Under the pieces are notes generated by a model, which was not told the origin of the DNA, made no database searches, and saw only the letters and a program-made list of their open reading frames with translations. A stretch of 64,000 nt of DNA from Tubiluchus corallicola (lineage: Eukaryota; Animalia; Priapulida). The stretch spans positions 993,688 to 1,057,687 of the forward strand of contig JAQGDQ010000031.1 of assembly GCA_030141605.1 (NCBI GenBank), in the 5' to 3' direction. The position numbers and the translations under genes were made by a program. Shown here piece after piece: positions 2 to 62,900 of this stretch; within the stretch, counting starts at the first letter, position 1, and each line of letters begins with the position of its first letter.

Positions 2-27966
<27,965 letters not shown>

Positions 27967-30243
27967 TTTCTGCGTGTATCTTTTTTGGGGGGAAATTGCA
28001 CATAATAAAGCACGAATCATTTATTTTCACCGATGTCAACCTTGTCAGGCAGAGTTTTCGAGAAATTTCTTTCGCTTTCGTACGTATGATGTGGTACAAA
28101 TATGTTTCTGTGTCCTATTCATTGGGATAATGTATAGCTCTTGTTCAGTGAAACCATTCAGCTATATATGCTGTGCAAACAATTATGAGCGCGGGGCTGC
28201 TCGCAAAGAAAAGCGTTTCATGCGCGCAGCCTGGCACACAGCATGCGCTTGTTTGTTGCGTTATCGTGCCAATAAAAAAGTGAGCTTGAAATGTTCAAGA
28301 ATCTAAATATTGCCTTTACTGTATTATTGTAGATGGTGTAGACAATACATCAATTTTCTTCTGGTCCTTTGCTTGTGTAATTTGTATATACCGCATTCAC
28401 ACTTCGTATTCAGTTTATTGGAGTGATTTTTAATAAGACCTATTATTTGACAATTTTTTATTTTGAAGCAGCTGTCCACTAATCTTATTTTGTGGTTAAT
28501 CTGTGCAGCATGATTATATTGCTATTAAAAGAAGAAAAGGCAAAATTGCTTACAGATGAAACAACTTCTTGCGTGAAAAGCTAGAATGCCAAGCTTCGTA
28601 TGATGCCCTAAATTTTTTAGACAGTTTAGTGACAAACATGAATACTGTTCTGAAGTGTTGTTGGGTAGGACAAGAGATAAAAAAATCGATATTACAGAAT
28701 ACAGACTTATACTACCTTATTTTCACGGTTACGTGTGATTAACTTCGACGCATACGAAGCTTTATTTTGCTATCATCAGCATGAAATAAAAAGTTACGAA
28801 AAAGTAAATGTAGGGCCTACTTAATATCAATATTGCGGAATTGATGGCGGTCAGGCAATTTTGGCTTGAAATTAGTGTTGATTGTTAGACTGTACTGTAA
28901 AGTTTTACCCAAAACAGACACAAAACTGAAGAAGAGATTGAAGTTAAACCTGTCAGCAATCTTGTCTTATGTTTCCCATATTGGTCTAAGGAACAGGTGT
29001 TGAAATACTGAGATACACCTGCCCGTGTTAGCTACTGAATCACAGAACTTCTGCTTGCTAGACTACAAAGTTTTATCGGTGCTAGTATGCACAGGCTTCA
29101 TAATGGACAGAACCATTGTGATGTAGGGGTGTGGTGAAAATAAACAGTATTTAACCTACAATGTATTGCCCTCTCTCCTACAGATAATGGATTGTCTCAA
29201 ACCAGAATGAAGAACCACACAGGAGAAGAGCCGCTGTCTCCCAGCTTCCTGAATGATAGGAAAGCTGAAAGTGTTTTACAACCATTAGGTTCCACTAGAG
29301 GTGGTACTTTAGCTAAATTTCGAAAAAGAACACCAGGAAAGTGTGGCACGTTACGTAAGAAAGCTGCTGGGTGTGAGCATTATTCCATAGATTGTTATTA
29401 GTAAAAACTGGAAACTCTGCCATATATCACCACACTTCAGCTCTAGTTTTGAAAAAGATCATCAGAACCACAAAGGCTACTAGAGAGAGAAAAAAAGCTG
29501 CTGATTGCCAATTATGACATTCATCGACTTCATTCTACTAATGACACTAGTGAACTGATGATGGCCAAACAATCTTGGGCTGGAATTTGAGTTGGCGTAT
29601 CATGCTGTATAGTTCAGATCTAAACTGCACAGAAGAGCCAAAAAACTGAAGAATGCCAATTGAAGTTAAATTTGCCAGTTGTGTGCATGTCATGTGTCTT
29701 CCACATTGGTCGATAGAACAGGTGCTGAGATTGTAAGTGCACCAGCACACACTGATACTGATCCATGGAACCTCTACGTGCTAGACTACTTGCAGGTGTT
29801 AGACTGTGCATGCTTCGTAATGGATAGAACCATATCAATGTAGGGATAGGGGTGAAAATAAACAGCATTTCCACTACAGTATAATACAGTATAGCCATTG
29901 TGTAAAAAACATAAGCCGAACATATAGCACATTCTGCAGTAGACCTACATATTCTTGTCATGCGCTTTGTGATGTATGGTATCTAAATCTGTAAAAAGCT
30001 TAGCTTAGCTTACACCCTCACTGTAACTCAAGCTAATAAAATTCTAATTTTCAGACCAGGAGTGTGTAAACCACATAGATTACAGTTTCTATAATATATT
30101 ATTAAGTTAGCATGTTGCCGCTCTTCAGGCCTACCTCCCAGATAATCTCTGCCTGGTTCCGGTGGCGCCCATAGTGTTGGTTTTTGAAGGTATTTTCAGA
30201 GACATTCCTTAGATGGCGCGCAAGTTCACCAGTTGTTTTAAAA

Positions 30244-36200: not shown

Positions 36201-39200
36201 CACGGCTAAATTCTTTGGTTAGTCTTATTTCCACAGTGTTGCGTAGTACTTTATTTCAGGCCCCTAGAATATAAAATGGATTTTATGCACTTTTCATTAG
36301 GTAAATTTATATGTTTAAATGTTGGTGCATCTTAAAATTGAATACATACATAATTGTATACACAATACAATCGAGTCCAGTTAAGTAAAAAAAGACAAAT
36401 TGCACTACATTATACATAAGCAAAACTTAAAATAATTTCAGAAAATTGAATTGAAATTTTTGAGAATTGACACTTTTCTAAATCTTCAAAGTTTTCTGTC
36501 CTTCATTAATTTTCCAACACATTTTTGCTGAAATGTCCAATTTAAAAGAAAACGAATTTGTAAAAGTTTATAAAGTTGTTGGTAGTACTAAATGAAATGT
36601 TATAATGTGATTGTTGTTATTGATCTGCTACACATTTTATGTTGGTTTTTATAATGATTTGTTGGTGCAGGGATCTGTCTGGAAGTGAATGGCAAGACCA
36701 AAAAACTTTGAGTCAAAAATTTTTAGAAGAAATTGATGAATTTCGTGTAAGTAATTAAAAGTGTGACAATTAAAATAAGCTAAGTTCGTTTGACAATTTG
36801 GCACTGTATTTAGTAAATACTTAAGAAGATAGTTTTGTGTTTGGCAAAAACACATTTTTTTTAAAGCTGTGTAAAAAAAATTTATGCAACTAGAAAGAAA
36901 CAGTTTGAATATTCACTTTCTGCTTGCTATTAAGTAATTTTACTTATGTATTATCATCTTGTAGCTCATTAAGCCTTTTCACAGTGCAGTTTCTGCAAGC
37001 CAAAAGCTAAGTGAAACCGGCATGTCTACGCGACCTTATGTGCATAACTACATGTAGGTGAAATGCGTGGTTATTTTTATTATATACTACACGTGTATAG
37101 TTTAAACTAACATGTTATTCTTATCTGAAAACAGCTAGCAAAGTAGCAGCAGCAAATCCATATGAAGTGAAATAAATGAAGCAAAAACTAATGCCAAAAA
37201 CTGTTACTGTTACAACAGCATGGGCTGAGAGGTGTTGTCAAGTGTAAACAAATGTGTTGTTTGGTTCAAATAACGTTGTTAGGTTCACTTGTCCTTTGAA
37301 ATTTTTACGATTATTATCAACCTCTGTGAAAAGACTTATTCTGCAATGATTTTCTTTATATTTGAAGTACAAACGATACATTGCATTACTGGATCGACTT
37401 TCAAAACATCCATATGCCTACAGAATAAAAGATATCATTACGGAACATCGAGTGTCCCTGGAGACAAAATCAAGGGCTATAGATATACTACCTGTAAGAA
37501 TAAAGTTTCATATGCTATTATTGTGCAGAAATTACATGGTACTTTCACTATCGCTTTCTCCTCGTTTCTATTTTTTATCTTTCACCACCTTTTATTTTTC
37601 TATGTTTTCAAAGTTTGCTCCCATATGATAACGTATGTGTAGCATGTGTCTTTCAAGTGAAAAATAGTAATGTGTACGTATTGTTTTGCATACATGACGT
37701 ATGATGTTTGCATACTTGGATGCTCAGTGGTGTGCAGAGGTTTGGTGATGCCCGGGTCCATCTTCTTGATTCTATGCTCCTAAGACTCAAGTAGTGGGCC
37801 TAGAGGGCCTAGTACTGAGAAATGTGAGAAAGTTAAATATGTAAAAACAGATGAAACATGAAATGAACACTTCATTCAAATTCATTATAATTTGACCCCA
37901 TTTATTAAGCTTGGGTTCCCCCAAATGAGATCTCCTGCGAGAAAACACTTGAACTACTTCAAGTTTTTTTTCAATACTGATTAAGGCCAGGTTGGTCGGT
38001 TGCTCTGATGACATGAAAGACTTCAGATGTGTTTTTATTAATTTCAGTTTTGAAAATGGCCTTTCACAACTTGCAATTGAAAATGCGATAGTAAGCAGTA
38101 ATCTGCGTTCAAGGCACATCTACTTATGCTACTTTATGTTTTCTTAATCGGAATTATGTAGAATATTTTGATGTAACAGATTTTCTAAACCGACCTTGCT
38201 TATCGAAACATGGATTACACCAGCTCATGGGATTGTAAGGCGTTAGTACAACAAAGTTAACAGGGTAATTTCGAATTTGAAAAACTAAATTTTTATTTCA
38301 CTCTTTGATTAGATATCCTCCTGATATTGATACCCGCGGTCATCGTGCTGTTTGCTCCTGTCTGCATGCTACTGTAAATGCTACATGATAATGCAAACAA
38401 AATTGTGTATTGCATAACAGAAATTTTCTAATTTTAGCTTTTAGAAGATGAAAGCGGAACTCGATATGTAGAAACAACATGTAAGTGGTACAAGTTTTTA
38501 GTTGTTTTTGTAATTCCCAATGTGAATTATTTTACTTAAGTGAATAGCCATGGGGCTGTGGAAGCCCCAAGCCAAGTGCCTGGTCTAGACTCTAAATAGA
38601 CTGGACAATGAACAAATTCGTAAATTAATTGTCTAAACTTGTATTTTATGTCTTACTTGATTCCATCACTGGACATTGGATGTTATGAATTATAACATTT
38701 GAAAACCTTAAAAATTATTTTTTCTGCCACGAACTTAAATGAATAACAAAAGAGCACCATTAGTAGGTAGTCAACATTTTCACTTCTGACAGTTCGTACT
38801 CTATTTACATTCATTAATTTACTTTCTAAGAGCAAAAAGAAAAGATTTCACAATCCCAGTAAAGGAATTTTTTAAATAACTGTAAAACAAAAATTTTTTT
38901 GCTTAAAATCACACAACATTATGTATTAAAAGTTTTAAAAGTTTCACAGTATTTGGGCGAGATTTCAATTCTTAATAAAAATCGAATTCGAAATTGGTTC
39001 TGAATATCATTCACACATTACATACATTTTGTCGCTTAGCACATAAAAATGGAATCATTTGGAAATTTTTAAGCAAAAGCCACAAAATCCATGAAACGAA
39101 ACAAACCTAGGAGGCTGTGTTGTAGGAGCCCTAAATACATTTTTTCTGGGGCCATTTTACTGTAGCTGGTCACTAGAATGAGTGTTCCAAATGTACCCAA

Positions 39201-48368: not shown

Positions 48369-50465
48369 CCGTAAAACGGGGTGAGTTCCCCACGCCTTAC
48401 TTAATGGATGACGTAATGGCCATTGTAGGTTTGCTGTAACTATTGTTCAGTGTTTAATGAACAGATATCATGATCACCGTCATTATAAACAGTTATCTTC
48501 TTTCAATTTGCACTAGAAGTATTCCATTCTGCGCTACATATTATTTGTCTACTATTTCTTGCTAATTAACATGCCACGCACCTACACCCCTGTACCGGGT
48601 CATAGATACCAAAATTTTACCCCAGAAGCTGCCCTACATGCCGTCAAGAATACCAACAGGACAATCAGCGCAACGGCAAGGCAATTCGGAGTTCCAAGAA
48701 AGACCCTTTCTGACAAACTCTCAGGAAGTCATCCGTGGAAGACCGGAGGTCAGCCAGTGTTCTCCGCCGCCGAGGAGCACGAAATTGCCAACACACTCCA
48801 AGTGGCCGCTGAGTGAGGGTTCCCAATGACTGCCATCGATCTCTGACTACTGATTAAGAGTGTTCTTGACGCGAAGGGAATCCAGGAACGACGATTCAAG
48901 GCAAACACCCCTGGAATAGATTTTGTCAAATCATTCGCCCGAAGGAACAATCTGGTTTTCAGAGTGGCTGGCAACATCAAGGGCGCCCGTGCGAAGATCA
49001 GTGCACAAGACGTTCAAGCCTTATTCAAAACGTCCCACCATCGAACATTTTCAACTTCGACGAGACCAACGACGACAACCCCAGTGCCAAAGTAATCCTT
49101 ACTCGTCTGAGAACAAGACGCATCGAGAACATCAAGGACCACTCCAAGGTCGCCGTTTCCCTGATGGCTTGCGGGGCCGCCGACGGGACGATGCTACCAC
49201 CTATGGTAGTATACAAAGCCAAGAACATTTACGAAAACTGGACAAAAGGAGGTCCACGAGGCACTGTCTATGATTGCACAACAAGTGGGTGGTACAACAT
49301 GGAGACCTTTGAGCGGTGGTTCACCTCCTTATTTCTTCCTCATGCCAACCAACTTCTTGGGAAAAAAGTTCTCCTTGGCGATAACTTGGCTTCACACTTT
49401 TCTCCAGAGGTAATCAGGCTGTGCCGAGAACATGACATCCATTTCATAAGCTTGATCCCCAATGCCACGCATCTTCATCAACCGCTTGACGTGGCAGTCT
49501 TCAAGGGCCTGAAAGTCAGATGGAGGCGAATCCTGGACAAGTGGCGGATGGAGACAAAAAGGAATGGGGTCATACCAAAAGAGACTTTCCCGCAACTTCT
49601 CAATAGCCTCTGGGATCAGTCCTCCCAAGCCTTTCGCGAAAGCTTACCATCTGGCTTCCGGGCGTGTGGCTACGTGCCCTTCAGGCCTGATGAAGTGACC
49701 AAGAGGTTGCCAGATGCCGGTAACTCAAACATTGGCAGGGACTTGGATGACCCTTTGATTGCTCTTTTGAAAGCACAACGACGAAGCCCAAGATAGGGAA
49801 GAAGGTTAGCCATAAACCAGGAGTTGATTTAGCAGCTGCCGCTTTCCATGGACATGATGGAGCTGGTCCTTCGACTTCGACTAACGCTGCAGGAAATCCA
49901 GAAGTGGATATTCCCGATGAGAACACGGACATCTGCTTTCAATGTGGAATGAATTACCGGGGATATACGGGGCCCAACTGGGTGCAGTGCCTGAACAGCG
50001 TAGACATTTAAGACTTTATCGGTGTTGATCTACATGTACATGCACCTTGTTATTTTATTGTCATACAAGAAATATAGTTCATGAAGCAAATTTCTGTTAT
50101 ACAGTTTCTAACTTTTTTTTATTACACTGTACTTTAAATCCTACAAATATTTACAGGTACATTGTTATTTTAAAATTTTAAATACTACTTTGCACGTAAT
50201 TCGGCTAAAACTAGATATTTTTCATAATTTTTTCATAGGGTGGCGAACTCACCCCCAACCAAACAATCACAACCAGTTAACTTCAACTGCCTAGAATGGC
50301 ATTAAACAGTGTTAAATTGTTAGTGGCGAATTCACCCCACGATAGTGTTTCATTCGAAAGACAATATAAAGCTTGAACTAAGAAAATCGGTTGGGTAATT
50401 CTCTTGCTATGGCAGGAAACATAAAAAATACCCATAAAAAGTGGCGAACTCACCCCGTTTTACGG
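48369..50465 (+). mobile_element. Full-length pogo-superfamily (DD35D) DNA transposon with a disrupted transposase
   Basis: 25 bp TIRs CCGTAAAACGGGGTGAGTTC(C/G)CCAC, TA on both sides, subterminal gtggcgaa.tcacccc repeats (50240, 50323). ORF from 48571: HTH (ATARQFGVPRKTL), NFDET, GDN-35aa-QPLD, C-terminal PHD-like remnant CFQCG..WVQC; contains stops and frameshifts. Confidence 0.92.
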
Positions 50466-50467
50466 TA

Positions 50468-51200
50468 TGAGTGACTCATTTGCCTGCCGCTATCCATACA
50501 GATCGGCCGTTTTTGCATGTTTCTTGTGATCCAAAAAATGGGCAAAAAAAATCGTCATTGAGTGAGACTCAGAGGGTTAAAATCGTGACTTTACATCAAG
50601 AAGGATATACTGAAAGGGAGATAGGTGCTAGATTACAGTTTTCCAAGACAGCCGTGCACCAAGCTATTGTCAAATTCGAGACTGATGGCACTTACAGCGA
50701 TAGGAAACTGTCTGGCCGTCCGCGGAAGACTACCCAAGGAGACGACCACATCATGAGACGCATGGTGGTATGCTCGCCTATGAGCTCCTGCAAGAAGATG
50801 CGGGCTCAGATGCGCTTGACAGGCTTGGAATTGAGTGCCAGTACAGTTTCTAGGCGTTTGAGCAAGGAGTTTAGCCTTAAAGCCAGAAAGCCGGCCCGTA
50901 AGCCACGCCTAATGCCAGTAATGAATCGGAAGAGACTGAACTTTGCAAAACGACATTGAGATTAGACCATCCAGGATTGGAACAAAGTCTTGTTCTCGGA
51001 TGAATCAACCATACAGCAGGTTGTAGCTCGAAAGAGGCACGTTAGGAGGCCAGTAGGCAAGCGATTCGATGAGAGATACACTGTAGCCACCATGAAACAC
51101 CCTCCAAGTCAGATGATCTGGAGTGCCATGTCGTGTTCTGGGACAGCTGGACTCTACTTCCTCCCACCCAATACCACTATGAATGGTCCTAGGTATGCCT
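50468..51200 (+). mobile_element. Tc1 transposase pseudogene, 3'-truncated
   Basis: ATG 50538 MGKK[frameshift in A8]..IVTLHQEG..REIG..SGRPRKTT..TVSRRL..ARKPRL..RLNFAKRH*..WNKVLFSDES..TMKHPPSQMIW; it breaks off at MNGPRY, before the second catalytic Asp. Confidence 0.9.
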
Positions 51201-53560: not shown

Positions 53561-56500
53561 ATGAGTAACGCCAGGCTTCACAGAGATTGATCAGTAGCTT
53601 TCTCGAGCCAGTTAGCATAGGACGGCAACGCCACCTGTACGGGAGCTTATCTATATATGGAGTAATTTTGAGTTGCTATGACTTACGACGTTGTGCAGTT
53701 AAATATTTAACCTTATGTATTTAATCCTGTATAGTAAGTACAACGTGTATGTATAGCCAAATATTTATCTGTACAATATACATGTACTAACGAATGCTCT
53801 GATTTAGGTAGGACCAGCCCTAACGTAGGGAGCTTTCTTTATTAGAAAGAAAGGAGTAAAAGAAAGCCGTTTAAAATAATGATTTAAGATCAAATTATCG
53901 TCTTGGCTAGAAGCCCAGTTAGGTGTGGCATATCACGTGATGATCAGTTGATATTCGACAGGCTTAGTCAGAAGTAAAGATTGATTATGTAATCTTTATG
54001 CGCAGAAGCTCTGGGCGCATTAGGTAGTTAGGCAAAAGGAATTTGAGGCCTCCATCTCGGGCAGATTTGGAGCTGTCTTGAAGACGGATGGCTGGCATTG
54101 CTATCCTCTTATGTATACCGTGTTTGTGCTTGATGTTTAATAAACATGCAGTTTGCTAAACAAGGTCTCGATAGTTTGGAGTAAGGAAAGCGAGATTCAG
54201 ATGCTTGGATCGGCCAGGAGCGATGCTGCTATACTCACCAGTTAAAGTATGCAGAATAATAATTGCATCAGCTGTACTGCACAATATCGCGAGCATAAAC
54301 AGCATTCCCTTGCCTTGCAAAGTTAATCTAGCACTGCGACAACTAGAAATTGGAGAGGAAGAGTACGAACAAGATGATATTTAACAATTACAGCAGTACA
54401 GGGATGATCGTGAAGCACGAGGTCACCTAGCTGAACAGAGATTTCAGTAGAACTGTTCTAGTTTCTTTCCCATATTGTAAAATTTCGTTTAATTTTGTTT
54501 CCAACATTTATATGCTTAATTAAATTATAAAAGCTTTGCATAATTACTAAAGCATGTTTATTTGAACAATTATGGGTGATTCTCCGAAAATAGGCCGTTT
54601 TGTGTCCTCATGTTTTTTCTCCCGTAGATTTGTTACTTCTGTAATAGTATTTCTAAAATTGTCAAAATAAGTATGTGATTGTGCTAAAAATTAGGTATAA
54701 TGTACATAACCTGTGGAATGAATGTCATTTTGAAAACAAAATTGTGACAAAAAATCATTACCATCACTGTTCCCAGCAATGAATTTTTATATATCCGGAC
54801 CTCTTTTCTTTAAATGTTACCTTATCTTGACTTGATAGATATTGTGTACTTCTTGCTGTATGTCCTAGTTATCGATTAGATAATCCGATATACAAAGAAA
54901 AGCACATTTAGTTGCAAATACGGACACTTATTGACATGTCCCTCATTTCAACCTTCATTACTCTAAAAATGTTTGCTAAGCGATCGTGTGAAGCTTTCTG
55001 TGAAATTTATTTTTTCTTGGGGAATTATTATAAGAATCACACCAGATGAACAAATAAACGTAATCTTTTTTTTAATTATTACCATGTGCACTGCAAATGC
55101 GTAAAAACCTGATAATGTATATTATTTATCAGAATTCGGTGTAGGTCAAAGGACCACCAGTCAAATATCCACAGGTAAATGGAACATCACAAAGAAAGGG
55201 CCACCAGTCAAAGAGCCACCAGATGAAGGACAACTGGTCAAACATTCATCTGAAAAGACAAAGGACCACAAAATAAAAATTAGCAGACGAGGTGAATGTG
55301 TGATTCATGTGAAAAATTATGTGATATACACTGTGCTCTGACCTGATCTGTTCATCAACATACTAAATTGTTATTGTTAAGCCAAGAAACTGGTCACCAT
55401 TTTCTAAGTTGAGGTTGATGTCTGCTCAAGCCAGGGTTGTCCATGCGGTTCACAAGAGCTCTGTGTGCAAGCATACATTACCAAGCAAGAAGAACCAGCA
55501 CTACCAATCCCAATAGTGACTATTGTCAAGTCAGTATTGGAATGTTATCAAGTGAAAAGTTTTGGGGAAATAATTACATTCAACCTTACAATTCTAATAT
55601 GAGATCAATTCCCATATCAGGGGCACAAATTTGAGTTGCACTGCGTTAGGCTCATGCTATTTAGAGGCAGCAAGCACGGAACATGTGTCCAATAGAGGAG
55701 ACGAACAAATTAATCATGAGCTGAACTGGAAAATGAATTATGCCTGTAGTAAACATGATAATAGCGGTTCTGCTATTATAACATGATAAAGTTGACTTGT
55801 GAGTTGAAGAAGCCAACAATAAAATTAATGCAGAAAGTTCAAATAACCAATTTTTTCTTTACTGCAGACGACTGCTTTTGAACATGACAGATTAATCATT
55901 GAAATGATGATTACACCACAAACTGATGAGCAATACTAACCCAAGTCAGGATCACTCTCACAAAGCCATAGCTGCACAAAAATTCTCGAGGATTTTACAT
56001 CGTAACAGTGATTTTCTAGCATCACAACAACTGTTGTGATAACATTCATTTCAAAGAAAAAGTAGCAGAGAAGATCGCCAATGCTTAAAGCAGTATGTCT
56101 ATGAACACCTGAATGAATTTCGTGATTATTCTATTAGTGAATATTTCTTTTTATTCAATTTTATATTTATAATATAGTTTTGTTGAATCTCTGTTAAATA
56201 CCTTAATTGTTAAAACCACTTCAAGTAAATAAAACTCAATTAATGAGATTCTTTTGCGCCTCAACTACTTTCATTAAAGCAAGTTCCTAACATTATTTCA
56301 GGCTTCAACGGAATCGCTCAGAACTCACAATCATTTTGAAACTCTGTTAAGAAAACTTTGGTTGAAATGAATCAAACTCTAGTAATGACGTTATGATGTC
56401 ATTCCTTAACTTTGTGCAACTTTACGTTTTAACGTTTTACGATTTAAGATATAGGTGTTTCATATAAAATAAATGAATGTATGGTTTTTATTAGAAATGT

Positions 56501-57238
56501 TTGAAAATTACATCACAAATAAATAGGGAAATGACTGGCAAAGTGACTTTAAATGCAATATAGTGAAACAGCCACAAAAATGTTTCTTTTGTGCATGACA
56601 AATTTTCTCATAACATCTACTTGCACATAATTGCTACATCAGTGATCATACGTAATGTCGTACATTCGAATAGTGTAAAATGACACAAAAGTCGCTGATA
56701 GAAAACCTGCTGAATCATTTAGTTACTGCTACCGAAATGTTTCAATGCAGTGTCGAACTCAGAAGACCGTACATAATGAACAGATTCCAAATTCTTCAAG
56801 CAATACTAATGACAGTTCTTTTTGTGGTAGTTTTTATGGACTAAATAGTAATATAGATTGTTCAACGACTTTGCAAAAACTTTTAGCATAAAAGACAAAC
56901 AGAAATTTTGTGCAAACAAAAGTGATTGACTTTTTTGAATCTCAACGACTTTGCACATAAAATACATGAACAGTTACATGGCGGGTCGCATTTTTAACAC
57001 AGCAACGCGGCACATCAAGTCGTCCCTAACCTCATTAAATACTGTACTGTAACGGCAGACACTTGGGACACTTCAGTACTTACTATTTTTAGGAAACTTT
57101 GTACGTCATGATTGACGTTTAGCGCGAATGTTTACACAAGTCACGCCACTAGTCATGCGTTGTACTTTGGACTAACTGTTTAACCGTCACTTCTTTGTTC
57201 GTTATGAGAGAGTATAGACCTGTCTTTATACCGTTCGT

Positions 57239-57843
57239 ATGGCTTACCGTCGGTATCGTCGTTTTGGTAGACGTTTTTCATTGCGTAAAAGATTATTTCA
57301 CACGGACTTAGAAGAATAGGTTATGGTCCGGCTAAAACAGCAGTTTCCCGTGCGTACTGGAGACACCGTGCGGCTTATCGTAGAATGGGGCGAAAAAGAG
57401 AGTGGAGTGCCCAGTCGGGTCGCCAGAAGTCGCATAATGCGTTTCTTCGGAGAAGAGGATGGCGGAGATCTAAGAGAAATCAGGACCATAGTAAGATACG
57501 CTTTAACAAAAAGGTATCTGTCGAAGCGATTGTACGGTATAATGGTACGGACTTTAATCCCTCTAATATCCAATTTGGCGAAGGACCTTTTTTACCTGCC
57601 CAGTATGAAGACCCTGTTAACTGGGATAAATGGGATATGTATCAGCAGAAAAGATTTGACCGTATATCATGGAAGGTTAGTAATGTCCGTCTCTTTACCC
57701 GTAACATCCATGGTGGAGATCCTGATACGACATGGAACCAAGACCGAACGCTGCCAATTTACTGGTACCACGATAAATATGAGGAAACCAATCGTTCGGT
57801 ATTCCCTAAACTGTGCAATTCTGATGCCAGCAGCGATTGTTGA
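57239..57843 (+). pseudogene. Endogenous viral element: CRESS-DNA/circovirus-like capsid gene, frameshifted and probably 3'-truncated
   Basis: ATG 57239 gives MAYRRYRRFGRRFSLRKRLF. Removing 2 nt from tttcacacgga joins it to HGLRRIGYG..YWRHRAAYRRMGRKR..FLRRRGWRRSKRN and then ..VNWDKWDMYQQKRFDRISWKVSNVRLF.. (~200 aa in total). Arg-rich arm followed by a beta-rich body; no introns. Confidence 0.65.
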
Positions 57844-58046
57844 TGGTAAAGCTTTCTTGCTGATGTGCATGCTATGGTCTGCATGCTTTTTCATCAGTAG
57901 CTATCTACAAAATCACCAGGCAGTGCCCAGACTCGGGCTGGACCCCGGCACGGGCGTAAAATGATCAAATAATTAGTCGAAAATTTTTATGCTTAACAGT
58001 TCGGGCTCAAAGTTAAGGCCGAAAGTCTTCAGCTGAGCCTCGGGTT

Positions 58047-58342
58047 GTAAGGTCTTCATTTTTTCCACCATCAGGGGGCTGCAGGTGCACCCCAAATTTA
58101 GCTATTTGGGGGGCTCGTGTTGTAAGGCCTTCATTTTTTCCAACAGCTGGGGAATGCAGGTGGACCCCAAAATTAACTATTTGTGTAGGCAGGAATGCAC
58201 CTGCAGGCACCCAGCTGGTGGCATGCCAGCATTGCATGTCTTTACATGTTTGTCACTTTTTAACGTGCATTTTACAAAATCTGCATTGCTTGTAACCCTC
58301 CTTAGAAGCACTCATCCAAATCTTTCTCTTTTTCTCTTCATC
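58047..58342 (+). repeat. ~295 bp direct repeat A (contains a 75 bp internal tandem repeat)
   Basis: Repeated at 59176-59466; a single internally deleted version lies at about 62838-63060. Confidence 0.9.
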
Positions 58343-59032
58343 TCTTGATTTTCGGCAGACATTACTTCGACCTTATCAGCTGGTTTCGTAGCTTGAATTT
58401 TATTGACGACGTCACCATTGCAACCGAATTCGGACAACTGCTTTGTAGTAAACGTTCCCGATTTCACCAGCTGAATTAGTAAATTATTGTCGCAACATTT
58501 CTCGCATGCCCATTGAAATTCGCCCAGCTGACTTAATGCCTCATAAAGTTTCTCTGTTAGTACATGATCTTGCTTTAGGTTTAAACAGTTTATGCACCAC
58601 CAACGTTCACAGCTGTCACAAATCAACCCACTTGCAACACGTTGACGACAATTTATGCATTTGTTATCTTTAGCCATAATTAGTCATTACGAAAATGTTC
58701 GAAAATTATTTACCGGTAGGCAGACGTCCTAGCGAGTAGACGATCGCTCTTTCTTGGTAAACGTAGACTGCATACAAGTATCGTCGCCCACTGATTAGCA
58801 AAAAACTACTCTCTGCTACCAATTTTTGTCGTGTTGACAAAAGGTATAACAGTTAAAATCTTCATCAAACTTTTATTTATAACAGTGAATTATGACATAC
58901 AGCTACAGCTTTCACATTACTGCAGCCATGCAGTCCTGCTTCACACACACTACACTGTATCACACACACTAATACAAATCAGACAACAATTCAATAGTGC
59001 TGCCATCTATTAGTGGCAATGCATACTTTACA
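58343..59032 (-). mobile_element. 5' end of an LTR retrotransposon: 206 bp LTR, tRNA-iMet PBS, PHD-finger ORF (gag-like N-terminus), truncated
   Basis: Minus strand: TGTAAAG (59032)...AATAAA...CACGACA (58827), 5 nt, then TGGTAGCAGAG (58821-58811), complementary to the 3' end of initiator tRNA-Met. ATG 58677 gives CINC..CDSCERWWCINC..WACEKC. Confidence 0.7.
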
Positions 59033-59175
59033 GCAACGAAGACCAGTTGAGGTAAAGTCTACACTTAAGTAACAATAGTACAGATTAAATGATTGAATAA
59101 GATTATCGCGGCTTGACGAACTCCATATCCGAGCCTAAGCACTACAGACAAAATCTTCGGTCGTTCACAACGACA

Positions 59176-59934: not shown

Positions 59935-62900
59935 CATTTATATGCTTAATTAAATTATGAAAGCTTTGCATAATTACTAAAGCATGTTTATTTGAACAAT
60001 TATGGGTGATTTTCTGAAAATAGGCCGTTTTGTGTCCTCATGTTTTTTCTCCCGTAAATTTGTTACTTCTGTAATAGTATTTCTAAAATTGTCAAAATAA
60101 GTACGTCATTGTGCTAAAAATTTGGTATAATGTACATAACCTGCGGAATGAATGTAATTTTGAAAACAAAATTGTGACAAAAAATCATTACCATCACTGT
60201 TCCCAGCAATTAATTTTATATATTCGGACCTCTTTTCTTTAAATGTTACCTTATCTTGACTTGATAGATATTGTGTACTTCTTGCTGTATGTCCTAGCTA
60301 TCGATTAGATAATCCGATATACAAAGAAAAGAATATTTAGTTGCAAATACGGACACTTATTGACATGTCCCTCATTTCAACCATCATTACCAAACTGCTA
60401 TTGAAACACTCAACTTTTTGCGTTCATGTGACTGCTACTCAAAAAATGTTTGCTAAGAGATCGTGTGAAGCTTTGTGTGAAATTTATTTTTTCTTGGGGA
60501 ATTATTATAAGAATCACACGAGATGAACAAATAAACGTAAGCTTTTTTTAATTATTACCATGTGCACTGCAAATTTGTAAAAACCTGATAATGTACATTA
60601 TTTATCAGAATTCGGTGTAGGTCAAGGGATCACCAGTCAAATATCCACAGGTCAAAGGACCACTGGTAAAAGGATCATCAGAAAGAAAGGGCCACCAGAT
60701 AAAGGACCACTGGTCAAACATCTGAAAAGACAAAGGACCACGCGTTAAAGGACCACGAAATAAAAATTAGCAGACGAGGTGAATGTGTGATTCATGTGAA
60801 AAATTATGTGAGATACACTCTGCTCTGACCTGATCTATTCATCAACATACTAAATTGTTATTGTTAAGCGAAGAAACTGGTCACCATTTTCTAAGTTGAG
60901 GTTGATGTCTGCTCAAACCAGGGTTGTCCATGCGGTTCATAAGAGCTCTGTGTGCAAGCATACATTACCAAGCAAAAAAATCAGCACTACTAATCCCAAT
61001 AGTGACTATTATCAAGTCAGTATTGGAATGCTATCAAGTGAAAAGTTTTGGGGAAATAATTACATTCAACCTTACAATTCTAATATGAGATCATATCCCA
61101 TATCAGGGGCACAAAATTGAGTTGCACTGCGTTAGGCTCATGCTATTTAGAGGCAGCAAGCATGGAGCATGTGTCCAATAGAGGAGACAAACAAATTAAT
61201 CATGAGCTGAACTGGAAAATGAATTATGCCTGTAGTAAACATGATAATAGCGGTTCTGCTATTATAACATGATAAAGTTGACTTATGAGTTGAAGAAGCC
61301 AACAATAAAATTAATGCAGAAAGTTCAAATAACCAATTTTTTCTTTACTGCAGACGACTGCTTTTGAACATGACAGATTAATCATTGAAATGATGATTAC
61401 ACCACAAACTGATGAGCAATACTAACCCAAGTCAGGATCACTCTCACAAAGCCATAGCTGCACAAAAATTCTCGAGGATTTTACATCGTAACAGTGATTT
61501 TCTTGCATCACAACAACTGTTGCGATAACATTCATTTCAAAGAAAAAGTAGTAGGGAAGATCGCCAATGCTTAAAGCAGTATGTCTATGAACATCTGAAT
61601 GAATTTCGTGATGATTCTATTAGTAAATATTTCTTTTTATTCAATTTTATATTTATAATAATATAATTTTGTTGAGTCTCTGTTAAATACCTTAACTGTT
61701 AAAACCACTTCAAGTAAATAAAACTCAATTAATGAGATTCTTAGTTGCACCTCAACTACTTTCATTAAAGCAAGTTCCTAACATTATTTCAGGCTTCAAC
61801 GGCATCGCTCAGAACTCACAATAATTTTGAAACTCTGTTAAGAAAACTTTGGTTGAAATGAATCAAACTCTAGTAATGACGTTATGATGTCATTCCTTAA
61901 CTTTGTGTAACTTTACGTTTTAACGTTTTAAGATAAAGGTGTTTCATATAAAATAAATGAATGTATGGTTTTTATTAGAAATGTTTGAAAATTACATAAC
62001 AAATAAATGGGGAAATGACTGGCAAAGTGACTTTAGGTGCAATATAGTGAAACAGCCACAAAAATGTTTGACGAATTTTCTCATAACATCTACTTGCGCA
62101 TAATTGCTACATCAGTGATCATACGTAATGTCGTACATTCGAATAGTGTAAAATGACATAAAAATCGCTGATAGAAAACCTGCTGAATCATTTAGTTACT
62201 GCTACCGAAATGTTTCAACGCAGTGTCGAACTCAGAAGACCGTACATAATGAACAGATTCCAAATTCTTCAAGCGATACTAATGACAGTTCTTTTTGTGG
62301 TAGTTTTTATGGACTAAATCGTAATACAGATTGTTCAACAACTTTGCAAAAACTTTTAGTATAAAAGACAAACAGAAATTTTGTGCAAACAAAAGTGATT
62401 GACTTTTTTGAATCTCAATGACTTTGCACATAAAATACATGAACAGTTCATGGCGGTTCGCATTTTTAACACAGCAACACGACACATCAAATCGTCCCTA
62501 ACCTCATTAAATACTGTACTGTAACGGCAGACACTTGGGATACTTCAGTACTTACTATTTTTAGGAAACTCTGTACGTCAGCTCTTTTTTGCAAAGAACG
62601 TGCAATTGGTTGATGGTAAAGCTTTCTTGCTGATGTGCATATTATGGTCTGCATGCTTTTTCATCAGTAGCTATCTACAAAATCTCACAAATTTGTAAAT
62701 GTATCACCGGGCAGTGCCCAGATTCAGGCTAGACTTGGACACGGGCGTAAAATGATCAAATAATTAGTCGAAAATTTTTATGCATAGCAGTTCGGGTTCA
62801 AAGTAAAGGCCGAAAGTCTTCAGCTGAGCCTCGTGTTGTAAGGTCTTCATTTTTTCCACCATCAGGGGCTGCAGGTGCACCCCAAATTTAGCTATTTGGG

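What the first reader, a model, noticed from the sequence alone, without database searches (positions are those of the whole stretch)
57109..57843. Endogenous ssDNA-virus-like capsid gene present in only one copy of a duplicated unit
Seen: a ~700 bp segment (57109 to ~57812) in copy 1 is replaced by 19 bp in copy 2. It has a ~130 bp leader and an ATG at 57239 reading MAYRRYRRFGRRFSLRKRLF. A 2-nt 'ca' slip joins this to a frame that stays Arg-rich for ~80 aa and then reads WDMYQQKRFDRISWKVSNVRLF. The six-frame track misses the true start. Known: Circoviridae/CRESS and anellovirus capsids have an N-terminal Arg-rich DNA-binding arm ahead of a single jelly-roll, often with an aromatic-x-x-Y-R-I-x-K-V-like strand. 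Inference: this is a capsid EVE of a possibly undescribed invertebrate ssDNA virus lineage, notable because no Rep is recognisable nearby. Only one frameshift and no internal stop suggests a young integration.
Basis: partly seen in the sequence, partly recalled or inferred. Interest (0 to 1): 0.85.

Follow-up and report, generated by a model that had tools for sequence, protein, structure and literature searches.

The report
Broken capsid gene of undescribed virus
A 704-base piece present in only one of two tandem copies of an animal repeat is likely the broken front half of a capsid gene from an undescribed small DNA virus, and the same animal's sequencing data hold a diverged relative as a repeating 219-base unit, so it is likely an ordinary, non-working viral fossil from a possibly unusual virus.

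Summary
Bases 57109-57812 are in copy 1 only; copy 2 has 19 other bases. A contig from the same specimen spans both junctions and the frame break with no gap, so it is not an assembly slip. The gene is also cut short: its stop lies in host DNA, after about half of a predicted jelly roll. No sequence homolog was found. Three weaker lines support a viral capsid. Language-model neighbours are capsid clusters (0.96). A parvovirus VP profile aligns over helix A to strand E (E 8e-4, 5 of 1000 shuffles as high). A second relative, 79% identical, appears in the same specimen as a cyclic 219-base contig at 3.7-5.1 times the depth, and its differences spare hydrophobic residues (2 changed, 8.6 expected). 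The Arg-rich arm is circovirus/anellovirus-like, but the core fits parvovirus VP better than those families. No Rep or NS1 lies in the window, which is common for capsid fragments. Verdict: a new member of a known kind (capsid EVE), likely dead, from an unclassified lineage.

The parts
54505..57108 (+). Copy 1 of the duplicated host unit, left of the insert
   Evidence: 92.7% to 59935-62580; 4.5% substitutions
57109..57812 (+). Foreign segment found only in copy 1 (the likely viral piece); GC 44% against 34% in the unit, CpG o/e about 1.3
   Evidence: spanned by one X1 contig 57020-57992 with 1 difference and no gap
57109..57238 (+). 130-base leader before the ATG; role not shown
   Evidence: sequence; 9 CpG; no Rfam match
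57239..57319 (+). ATG frame: Arg/aromatic-rich start (7 Arg in the first 17 residues), stop after 26 residues
57289..57843 (+). 184-codon open frame without a start codon (P0001); its last residues and stop run into host DNA
57289..57477 (+). Arg-rich arm, residues 1-63 of P0001 (16 R, 5 K, 7 W/Y/F, pI 12)
   Evidence: most Arg-rich 60-residue stretch of 232 in the window apart from three (GA)n microsatellite frames
57613..57777 (+). Predicted jelly-roll core, helix A - strand D - DE loop - strand E (residues 109-163); strand names are inferred from the parvovirus alignment
   Evidence: hmmsearch with 52 parvovirus VP cores, E 8e-4 one-on-one; rank 2 of 99 capsid targets; helix and strands in the low-confidence model
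57574..57779 (+). Part matched by the cyclic 219-base relative that lies elsewhere in the specimen's DNA
   Evidence: 249-base contigs in X1 and X2, 222-base contig in X3, joint 57779 back to 57574 with 14 other letters
57320..57964 (+). Shifted frame open for 214 codons; likely a by-product
   Evidence: no constraint against the relative (12 of 25 hydrophobic codons changed, 10.0 expected); chance of staying open about 0.07; no Pfam hit
57813..57837 (+). Right junction: 8 bases shared with copy 2, then 17 bases only in copy 1; no target-site duplication, no poly(A)
59935..62580 (+). Copy 2 of the duplicated unit, left of the empty site
62581..62599 (+). The 19 bases that stand in place of the insert in copy 2
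   Evidence: the empty junction is also an X2 contig at depth 106.6

Best explanation
The 704-base segment lies between host flanks in one of two tandem copies and likely is an endogenous piece of a small single-stranded DNA virus: a leader plus the front half of a capsid gene, with an Arg-rich arm and a predicted jelly-roll core that most resembles parvovirus VP. Shown: the segment, its junctions, the frame break, the 3' cut, the Arg-rich arm, and a second diverged relative in the same specimen whose differences spare the hydrophobic residues of this frame. Inferred: the virus infected the germ line and a DNA fragment was patched into a break by end joining (19 target bases lost, no target-site duplication, no poly(A)) after the unit had duplicated. 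Inferred: it makes no capsid, since the frame is broken and the later strands are missing. Inferred: the 219-base relative is a separate capture from a related virus, amplified head to tail. My odds: viral capsid origin about 0.85; parvovirus-like core rather than another jelly-roll family about 0.6; insertion in copy 1 rather than loss from copy 2 about 0.85.
For: Junctions and frame break confirmed by an X1 contig. ESM Atlas on residues 64-175, arm left out: first hit 0.96 with 201 of 256 features shared, an unnamed cluster (281 members, 56% viral, commonest phylum Cossaviricota); the next sets are capsid fragments with PF02956 (26-54% of members) and PF00740 (13-15%); all 10 rows shown are mostly viral. 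Parvovirus VP profile: 5.4 bits, E 8e-4, 5 of 1000 shuffles as high, colinear over 55 residues; the core ranks 2 of 99 capsid targets, above all 37 anellovirus-type, 4 circovirus, 50 CRESS capsids and 6 of 7 densovirus-type VPs. Constraint against the cyclic relative over 53 codons: 2 of 19 hydrophobic/Pro/Cys codons changed (8.6 expected, p 1.5e-4), 17 residues changed (23.7 expected, p 0.0012), 11 multi-hit codons (6.4 expected, p 0.005), no stop; the shifted frame shows none of this. Arm composition fits the arginine-rich motif of ssDNA capsids (PMC11945456 section 6). Second sample X4 holds 57475-57625 with 0 differences.
Against: No significant sequence homolog anywhere: 0 of 27 candidates, 0 of 11 longer candidates, 0 hits at E 0.001 among 1.84 billion representatives, no Pfam family at E up to 10, no PDB sequence. 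The parvovirus score is weak: four families were tried, one unrelated window stretch scored 4.6 bits against 4.3 for the full frame, and hhalign gave probability 5.6% with the best of 40 shuffles scoring higher (21.5 against 20.0). The Atlas thresholds were not measured for parts of proteins. Parvovirus N-termini are Gly-rich, not Arg-rich (PMC11945456). The constraint test uses 35 of about 40 differences, and shows a constrained protein, not a viral one. The 19 bases in copy 2 contain an 11-base inverted match to nearby DNA (150 of 3000 random 19-mers do), which a templated repair of a deletion could leave. X1-X3 are one sample, perhaps the source of the window; X4 does not cover a junction.
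Confidence: 0.6

Rival explanations
1. It is a capsid EVE of a CRESS, anellovirus or gyrovirus-type virus; the parvovirus resemblance is only the shared jelly-roll strand D pattern.
For: Arg/aromatic arm, which parvoviruses lack (PMC11945456, PMC10266747 passages). Whole-protein Atlas first hit is a Cressdnaviricota cluster with Circo_capsid on 29% of members, 0.91, 175 features; Circo_capsid (0.91) and Gyro_capsid (0.89) clusters also appear for the core. CRESS capsids are very diverse and my sets were small.
Against: Core against 4 circovirus capsids: 248 of 1000 shuffles as high; the 12.1 bits of the full frame come with the arm, as the core alone scores -1.2. Anellovirus-type profile: 33 of 1000, 19 residues only. 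Eleven CRESS capsid clusters gave hhalign probability at most 1.8%. No PF02443 or PF02956 hit.
Confidence: 0.22
2. It is a reverse-transcribed piece of an RNA virus with an Arg-armed single jelly-roll capsid (tombus-, astro- or noda-like).
For: Viral_coat S-domain (0.87-0.88), Astro_capsid_N (0.86) and Peptidase_A6 (0.87) clusters are in the Atlas lists.
Against: These rows score under 0.9 and below the ssDNA clusters; no poly(A) or target-site duplication, and the cut is at the 3' end. I built no RNA-virus profile, so this was not tested directly.
Confidence: 0.07
3. It is not viral: a fast-evolving host or transposon gene piece for a basic nucleic-acid-binding protein, carried in by a mobile element.
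For: No direct viral homolog; the region is full of repeats and transposon remnants; the relative is multi-copy.
Against: No cellular or transposon hit either; every Atlas row shown is mostly viral; intron-free, CpG-rich, abruptly bounded; parvovirus-register alignment.
Confidence: 0.08
4. The segment was in the unit before it duplicated and copy 2 lost it by a deletion repaired with a templated 19-base patch; the element would then be older than the 4.5% divergence of the copies. This concerns direction, not identity.
For: 11-base inverted match of the 19 bases to position 62342 (also 56869), seen for 5% of random 19-mers.
Against: The deletion would have to end within about 30 bases of where the open frame ends; no capsid-like residue remains in copy 2 (tblastn); CpGs in the insert are not depleted.
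Confidence: 0.15

Closest known systems
Capsid-derived endogenous parvoviral elements of invertebrates (IHHNV-EVEs, PMC12287923, passages; parvovirus-related sequences, PMC5013282, passages)
   Same: Short viral gene piece joined to host DNA among repeats, capsid-only, no replicase beside it; core aligns to parvovirus VP helix A to strand E.
   Different: No significant match to PF00740 or any sampled parvovirus; Arg-rich arm in place of a Gly-rich or PLA2 N-terminus.
Circoviridae / CRESS capsids (PF02443) and Anelloviridae ORF1 / gyrovirus VP1 (PF02956, PF04162); PMC10266747 passages, PMC11945456 section 6
   Same: Arg- and aromatic-rich N-terminal arm directly ahead of predicted jelly-roll strands.
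   Different: Core does not score against my circovirus or CRESS sets and only weakly, out of register, against the anellovirus-type set; no Rep in the window; second half of the domain missing.
Unnamed ESM Atlas cluster (104 aa, 281 members, commonest phylum Cossaviricota) and neighbouring 'capsid fragment' clusters
   Same: 0.96 feature similarity to residues 64-175, 201 of 256 features shared.
   Different: No alignment or sequence is given, so kinship, arm and replicase of these members are unknown.
Repeated, jumbled IHHNV EVE of Penaeus monodon (PMC8982415, passages) and shrimp circular viral copy DNA (PMC8507497, abstract)
   Same: Precedents for viral fragments multiplied as repeat blocks in a chromosome, or present as small circles; either could describe the 219-base relative.
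   Different: Here the repeat is one direct unit from the capsid core and 21% diverged from the second copy; array or circle is not resolved.

Membership tests
Endogenous viral element | Joined to host chromosomal DNA on both sides | tested here: met
   X1 contig 57020-57992, 1 difference, no gap; host receptor exon and transposons in the window. X1 may be the window's own sample.
Endogenous viral element | Empty homologous site | tested here: met
   Copy 2 lacks it; this is a paralogous site, not an allele
Endogenous viral element | Inherited: same insertion in another individual | tested here: inconclusive
   X4 holds 151 identical internal bases and host flank pieces but no junction
Endogenous viral element | Significant homology to a viral protein | tested here: inconclusive
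   No database hit; Atlas 0.96; profile E 8e-4 one-on-one
Circoviridae / CRESS | Arg-rich N-terminal arm | tested here: met
Circoviridae / CRESS | Capsid matches PF02443 or sampled CRESS capsids | tested here: not met
   No Pfam hit; 248 of 1000 shuffles as high; 11 clusters, probability at most 1.8%
Circoviridae / CRESS | Cognate HUH/SF3 Rep | tested here: inconclusive
   None among 1568 stop-free stretches of the window, best E 3; the rest of the genome is not held
Circoviridae / CRESS | Eight-stranded single jelly roll | tested here: inconclusive
   Model pLDDT 41, no fold match; the control parvovirus fragment failed likewise
Anelloviridae | Arg/aromatic arm ahead of the jelly roll | tested here: met
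Anelloviridae | ORF1 jelly-roll match (PF02956) | tested here: not met
   No Pfam hit; own profile 33 of 1000 shuffles as high, 19 residues
Anelloviridae | Projection domain between strands H and I; circular genome | not testable with these tools
   The fragment ends before that region
Parvoviridae | VP core (PF00740-type helix A to strand E) | tested here: inconclusive
   E 8e-4, 5 of 1000 shuffles, rank 2 of 99; hhalign 5.6%; no Pfam hit
Parvoviridae | Gly-rich VP N-terminus, often with a PLA2 domain upstream | tested here: not met
   6 Gly against 16 Arg in residues 1-63; no PF08398 hit
Parvoviridae | NS1 gene; linear genome with hairpin ends | tested here: inconclusive
   No NS1 in the window, best E 0.055 on a simple repeat; genome ends are not in the fragment

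The most novel reading that the evidence does not exclude
The donor is an undescribed lineage of small DNA viruses whose capsid joins a circovirus/anellovirus-style Arg-rich arm to a parvovirus-type jelly roll, a pairing that the family descriptions I read keep apart. It has entered this invertebrate's germ line at least twice, and in one case just the conserved 73-codon capsid core has been amplified as a head-to-tail repeat or small circle that could serve as an antiviral small-RNA template.
Probability: 0.25. Interest if true: 0.65.

Novelty: new member of a known kind. Interest (0 to 1): 0.4.

Why it matters
As a capsid-only viral fossil it is ordinary. Its value is as a host-linked marker: it would tie an unnamed cluster of metagenomic capsid-like proteins to an invertebrate host, and give two diverged samples of that lineage. 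If the arm-plus-parvovirus-core anatomy holds, it bears on how ssDNA virus capsids of Cossaviricota, Cressdnaviricota and anelloviruses are related. The 219-base repeat offers a direct test of whether captured viral pieces are amplified as small-RNA templates outside arthropods.

Tried and rejected
No whole genome is held, so other copies and a cognate replicase could not be sought beyond the window. Sequence searches with the long frame or its core found nothing: homologs; representatives; Pfam; PDB sequences; metagenomes, 0 of 42 candidates; earlier findings. One search reported 1 candidate in viral contigs passing tblastn but returned no locus, so it could not be examined. Motif scans built from the core (0, 28 and 55 loci) gave only the motif itself; best E 0.13 among 8053 stretches. 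One search returned only 1 parvovirus relative, so profiles were built from fetched loci instead; their family labels (parvovirus, densovirus-type, anellovirus-type) are my inference from motifs and similarity, with Pfam confirmation only for L018 and 3 of 4 circovirus capsids. Fold route: model pLDDT 41, no meaningful match; a real parvovirus VP fragment treated alike gave pLDDT 52, best Z 3.1 to unrelated proteins, and found parvoviruses only at 42-97% identity with TM about 0.15, so the blank is uninformative. No RNA holder listed. X5 shows no cover of the insert but has no 99% match anywhere in the region. No Rfam match. An overprinted gene in the shifted frame was considered and rejected. 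Depth of the insert against copy 2 was too uneven to give copy numbers. Literature searches for this anatomy or a capsid-core repeat gave 0 papers, and 3 and 2 listed, none describing it in what I read; the library is open-access only and I opened no supplements, where EVE tables could hold relatives.

Full report
Observation. The window is animal DNA: it holds an ANF_receptor exon, a LINE reverse transcriptase and DDE, Tc1 and hAT remnants. A self-comparison shows tandem units 54505-57108 and 59935-62580 at 92.7%, with 116 substitutions in 2582 aligned bases. At the break, copy 1 has 704 bases (57109-57812) and copy 2 has 19 others; then come 8 shared bases, 17 bases only in copy 1, and shared sequence from 57839/62609. 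There is no target-site duplication and no poly(A). The insert is 44% GC against 34% for the unit and has more CpG (44) than any non-overlapping window among 1266 sampled. The ATG at 57239 gives an Arg-rich start and stops after 26 residues. A second frame, 57289-57843, is open for 184 codons; 0 of 2000 shuffles gave a run of 174. Its stop is in DNA shared with copy 2, so the gene is cut at the 3' end.

Is it real DNA? Six runs were listed; five were laid. One X1 contig spans 57020-57992 with 1 difference and no gap; X2 covers 57189-57868 with 2 differences and X3 covers 57087-57304 with 1, neither with a gap. The junctions and the frame break are thus not assembly errors, though X1-X3 are one sample and may be the window's source. 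X2 differs from the window and X1 at 57794 and its contigs break at 57188, which suggests two versions of the insert in this animal (inference). X4, another sample and study, holds 57475-57625 with 0 differences at depth 4.7, plus host flank pieces, but no junction.

A second relative. One search also shows, in X1, X2 and X3, a contig that matches 57574-57779 and then returns to 57574 through 14 other letters. The X1 and X2 contigs are 249 bases with overlapping ends, which gives a period of 219 bases (my arithmetic), a multiple of three. X3 has 40 differences in 190 bases (79%). Depth is 36.3 against 9.74, 852 against 167 and 15.5 against 4.2, so 3.7-5.1 times the focal copy. Contigs cannot tell a chromosomal array from a free circle; the steady ratio in three libraries favours an array (inference). 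No contig matching the rest of the gene at 80% or more was laid in X1 (6 of 6 records shown).

The relative allows a test of selection. Of about 40 differences, 35 are listed; I used these, over 57592-57751 (53 codons), against 20000 random placements with the same base spectrum (one search gave the same picture over a longer span whose list is incomplete). In the long frame 2 of 19 hydrophobic, Pro or Cys codons change (8.6 expected, p 1.5e-4), 17 residues change (23.7, p 0.0012), 11 codons have several hits (6.4, p 0.005), and no stop arises (p 0.05). The shifted frame from 57320, although open for 214 codons, shows no constraint, and its openness has a chance of about 0.07. So the two pieces descend from working genes that diverged as proteins in this frame.

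What protein? Direct searches were blank: and motif scans 39, 59, 60 as read. The ESM Atlas gave a Cressdnaviricota cluster with Circo_capsid on 29% of members for the whole frame (0.91; recognition value 1942, below the 2300 mark, so weak). With the arm removed the first hit rose to 0.96, 201 features shared, an unnamed cluster whose commonest known phylum is Cossaviricota, followed by capsid-fragment clusters carrying PF02956 and PF00740 on part of their members. I then built profiles from fetched viral loci. Against 52 parvovirus VP cores the window core scored 5.4 bits, E 8e-4 one-on-one, 5 of 1000 shuffles as high, colinear over residues 109-163; against 37 anellovirus-type, 4 circovirus and 7 densovirus-type sequences, 33, 248 and 510 of 1000 shuffles were as high. 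Among 99 capsid targets the core ranked second against the parvovirus profile, behind one densovirus-type VP. Against this: four families were tried, hhalign gave only 5.6% with a shuffle scoring higher, and one unrelated stretch among 386 in the window scored about as well as the full frame. Eleven CRESS clusters and one single VP gave nothing by hhalign. The strand names are from my knowledge of the jelly roll applied to that alignment.

Structure could not decide. The single-sequence model has pLDDT 41 with a strand, a helix and further strands in the expected order, and no fold match. A true parvovirus fragment of like extent also missed its fold. This is expected from the sheets BIDG and CHEF (PMC10266747, passages): strands B to E have no neighbours among themselves.

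Replicase. Profiles of 60 Reps and 50 NS1 proteins found nothing among 1568 stop-free stretches of the window, and tblastn gave no hit at E 0.01. This is not unusual: 30 of 252 IHHNV EVEs come from the capsid gene (PMC12287923, passages), and 107 VP against 356 NS homologues were recovered in a wide animal survey (PMC5013282, passages).

How it likely arose. A small DNA virus reached the germ line; a fragment holding a leader and the first half of the capsid gene was joined into a break in copy 1, with loss of 19 target bases. These steps are inferred from the junction anatomy. Loss from copy 2 remains possible, since the 19 bases hold an 11-base inverted match nearby (5% of random 19-mers do), but the deletion would have to end where the open frame ends. 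The piece likely makes no capsid. A small-RNA role is untested.

Comparison and novelty. It works like a capsid-derived EVE. It is not filed in Circoviridae, Anelloviridae or Parvoviridae, as each has a tested feature unmet. PMC11945456 (section 6 read whole, other passages) gives parvoviruses Gly-rich N-termini and the other ssDNA families Arg-rich ones; this element has the Arg-rich arm with a core nearest to parvovirus VP. PMC11071296 (passages, section 13) reports lineages that blur parvoviruses and CRESS viruses, so a mixed type would not be without precedent. Repeated viral blocks (PMC8982415, passages) and viral DNA circles (PMC8507497, abstract) are known in shrimp. Searches showed no description of this anatomy or of a capsid-core repeat. 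Verdict: real, likely viral, likely dead; new member of a known kind; interest 0.4.

Noticed in passing
runs X1, X2, X3 laid on window 57574-57779: Cyclic 219-base relative of the capsid core at 3.7-5.1 times the depth of the insert; it lies outside the window; array or circle unresolved.
   Followed up: partly
window 57103-57118: A 6-base inverted repeat straddles the left junction, one arm in the flank and one in the insert; could be fold-back repair or chance.
   Followed up: no
window 56733 to 58286, run X4: A joint skips 1552 bases including the insert, but has only 23 letters on its short side, so it may come from a repeat.
   Followed up: no
window 58312-58683 (-), within about 58345-59175: PHD-finger-like frame (Pfam PHD E 0.022, below cut-off) in a high-copy repeat found only in copy 1; depth up to 5435 in X2; about 300 bases of the unit are repeated around it.
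   Followed up: partly
window 27283-28020 (-): 245-codon frame with an ANF_receptor ligand-binding domain (E 1.3e-17), likely a large exon of a receptor guanylyl cyclase.
   Followed up: partly
window 12340-13662 (-), 37787-38119 (-), 48870-49796 (+), 50471-50959 (+): LINE reverse transcriptase, hAT, DDE_1 and Tc1-type transposase remnants.
   Followed up: partly
window 57320-57964 (+): Shifted frame open for 214 codons over the capsid-like frame; no sign of constraint.
   Followed up: yes
Viral contigs: One stretch passed the tblastn check but no locus was returned; it could not be inspected.
   Followed up: no
window 56894-56937 and 62345-62425: Short high-copy repeat just upstream of the insertion site in both copies (loose ends and depth).
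   Followed up: no
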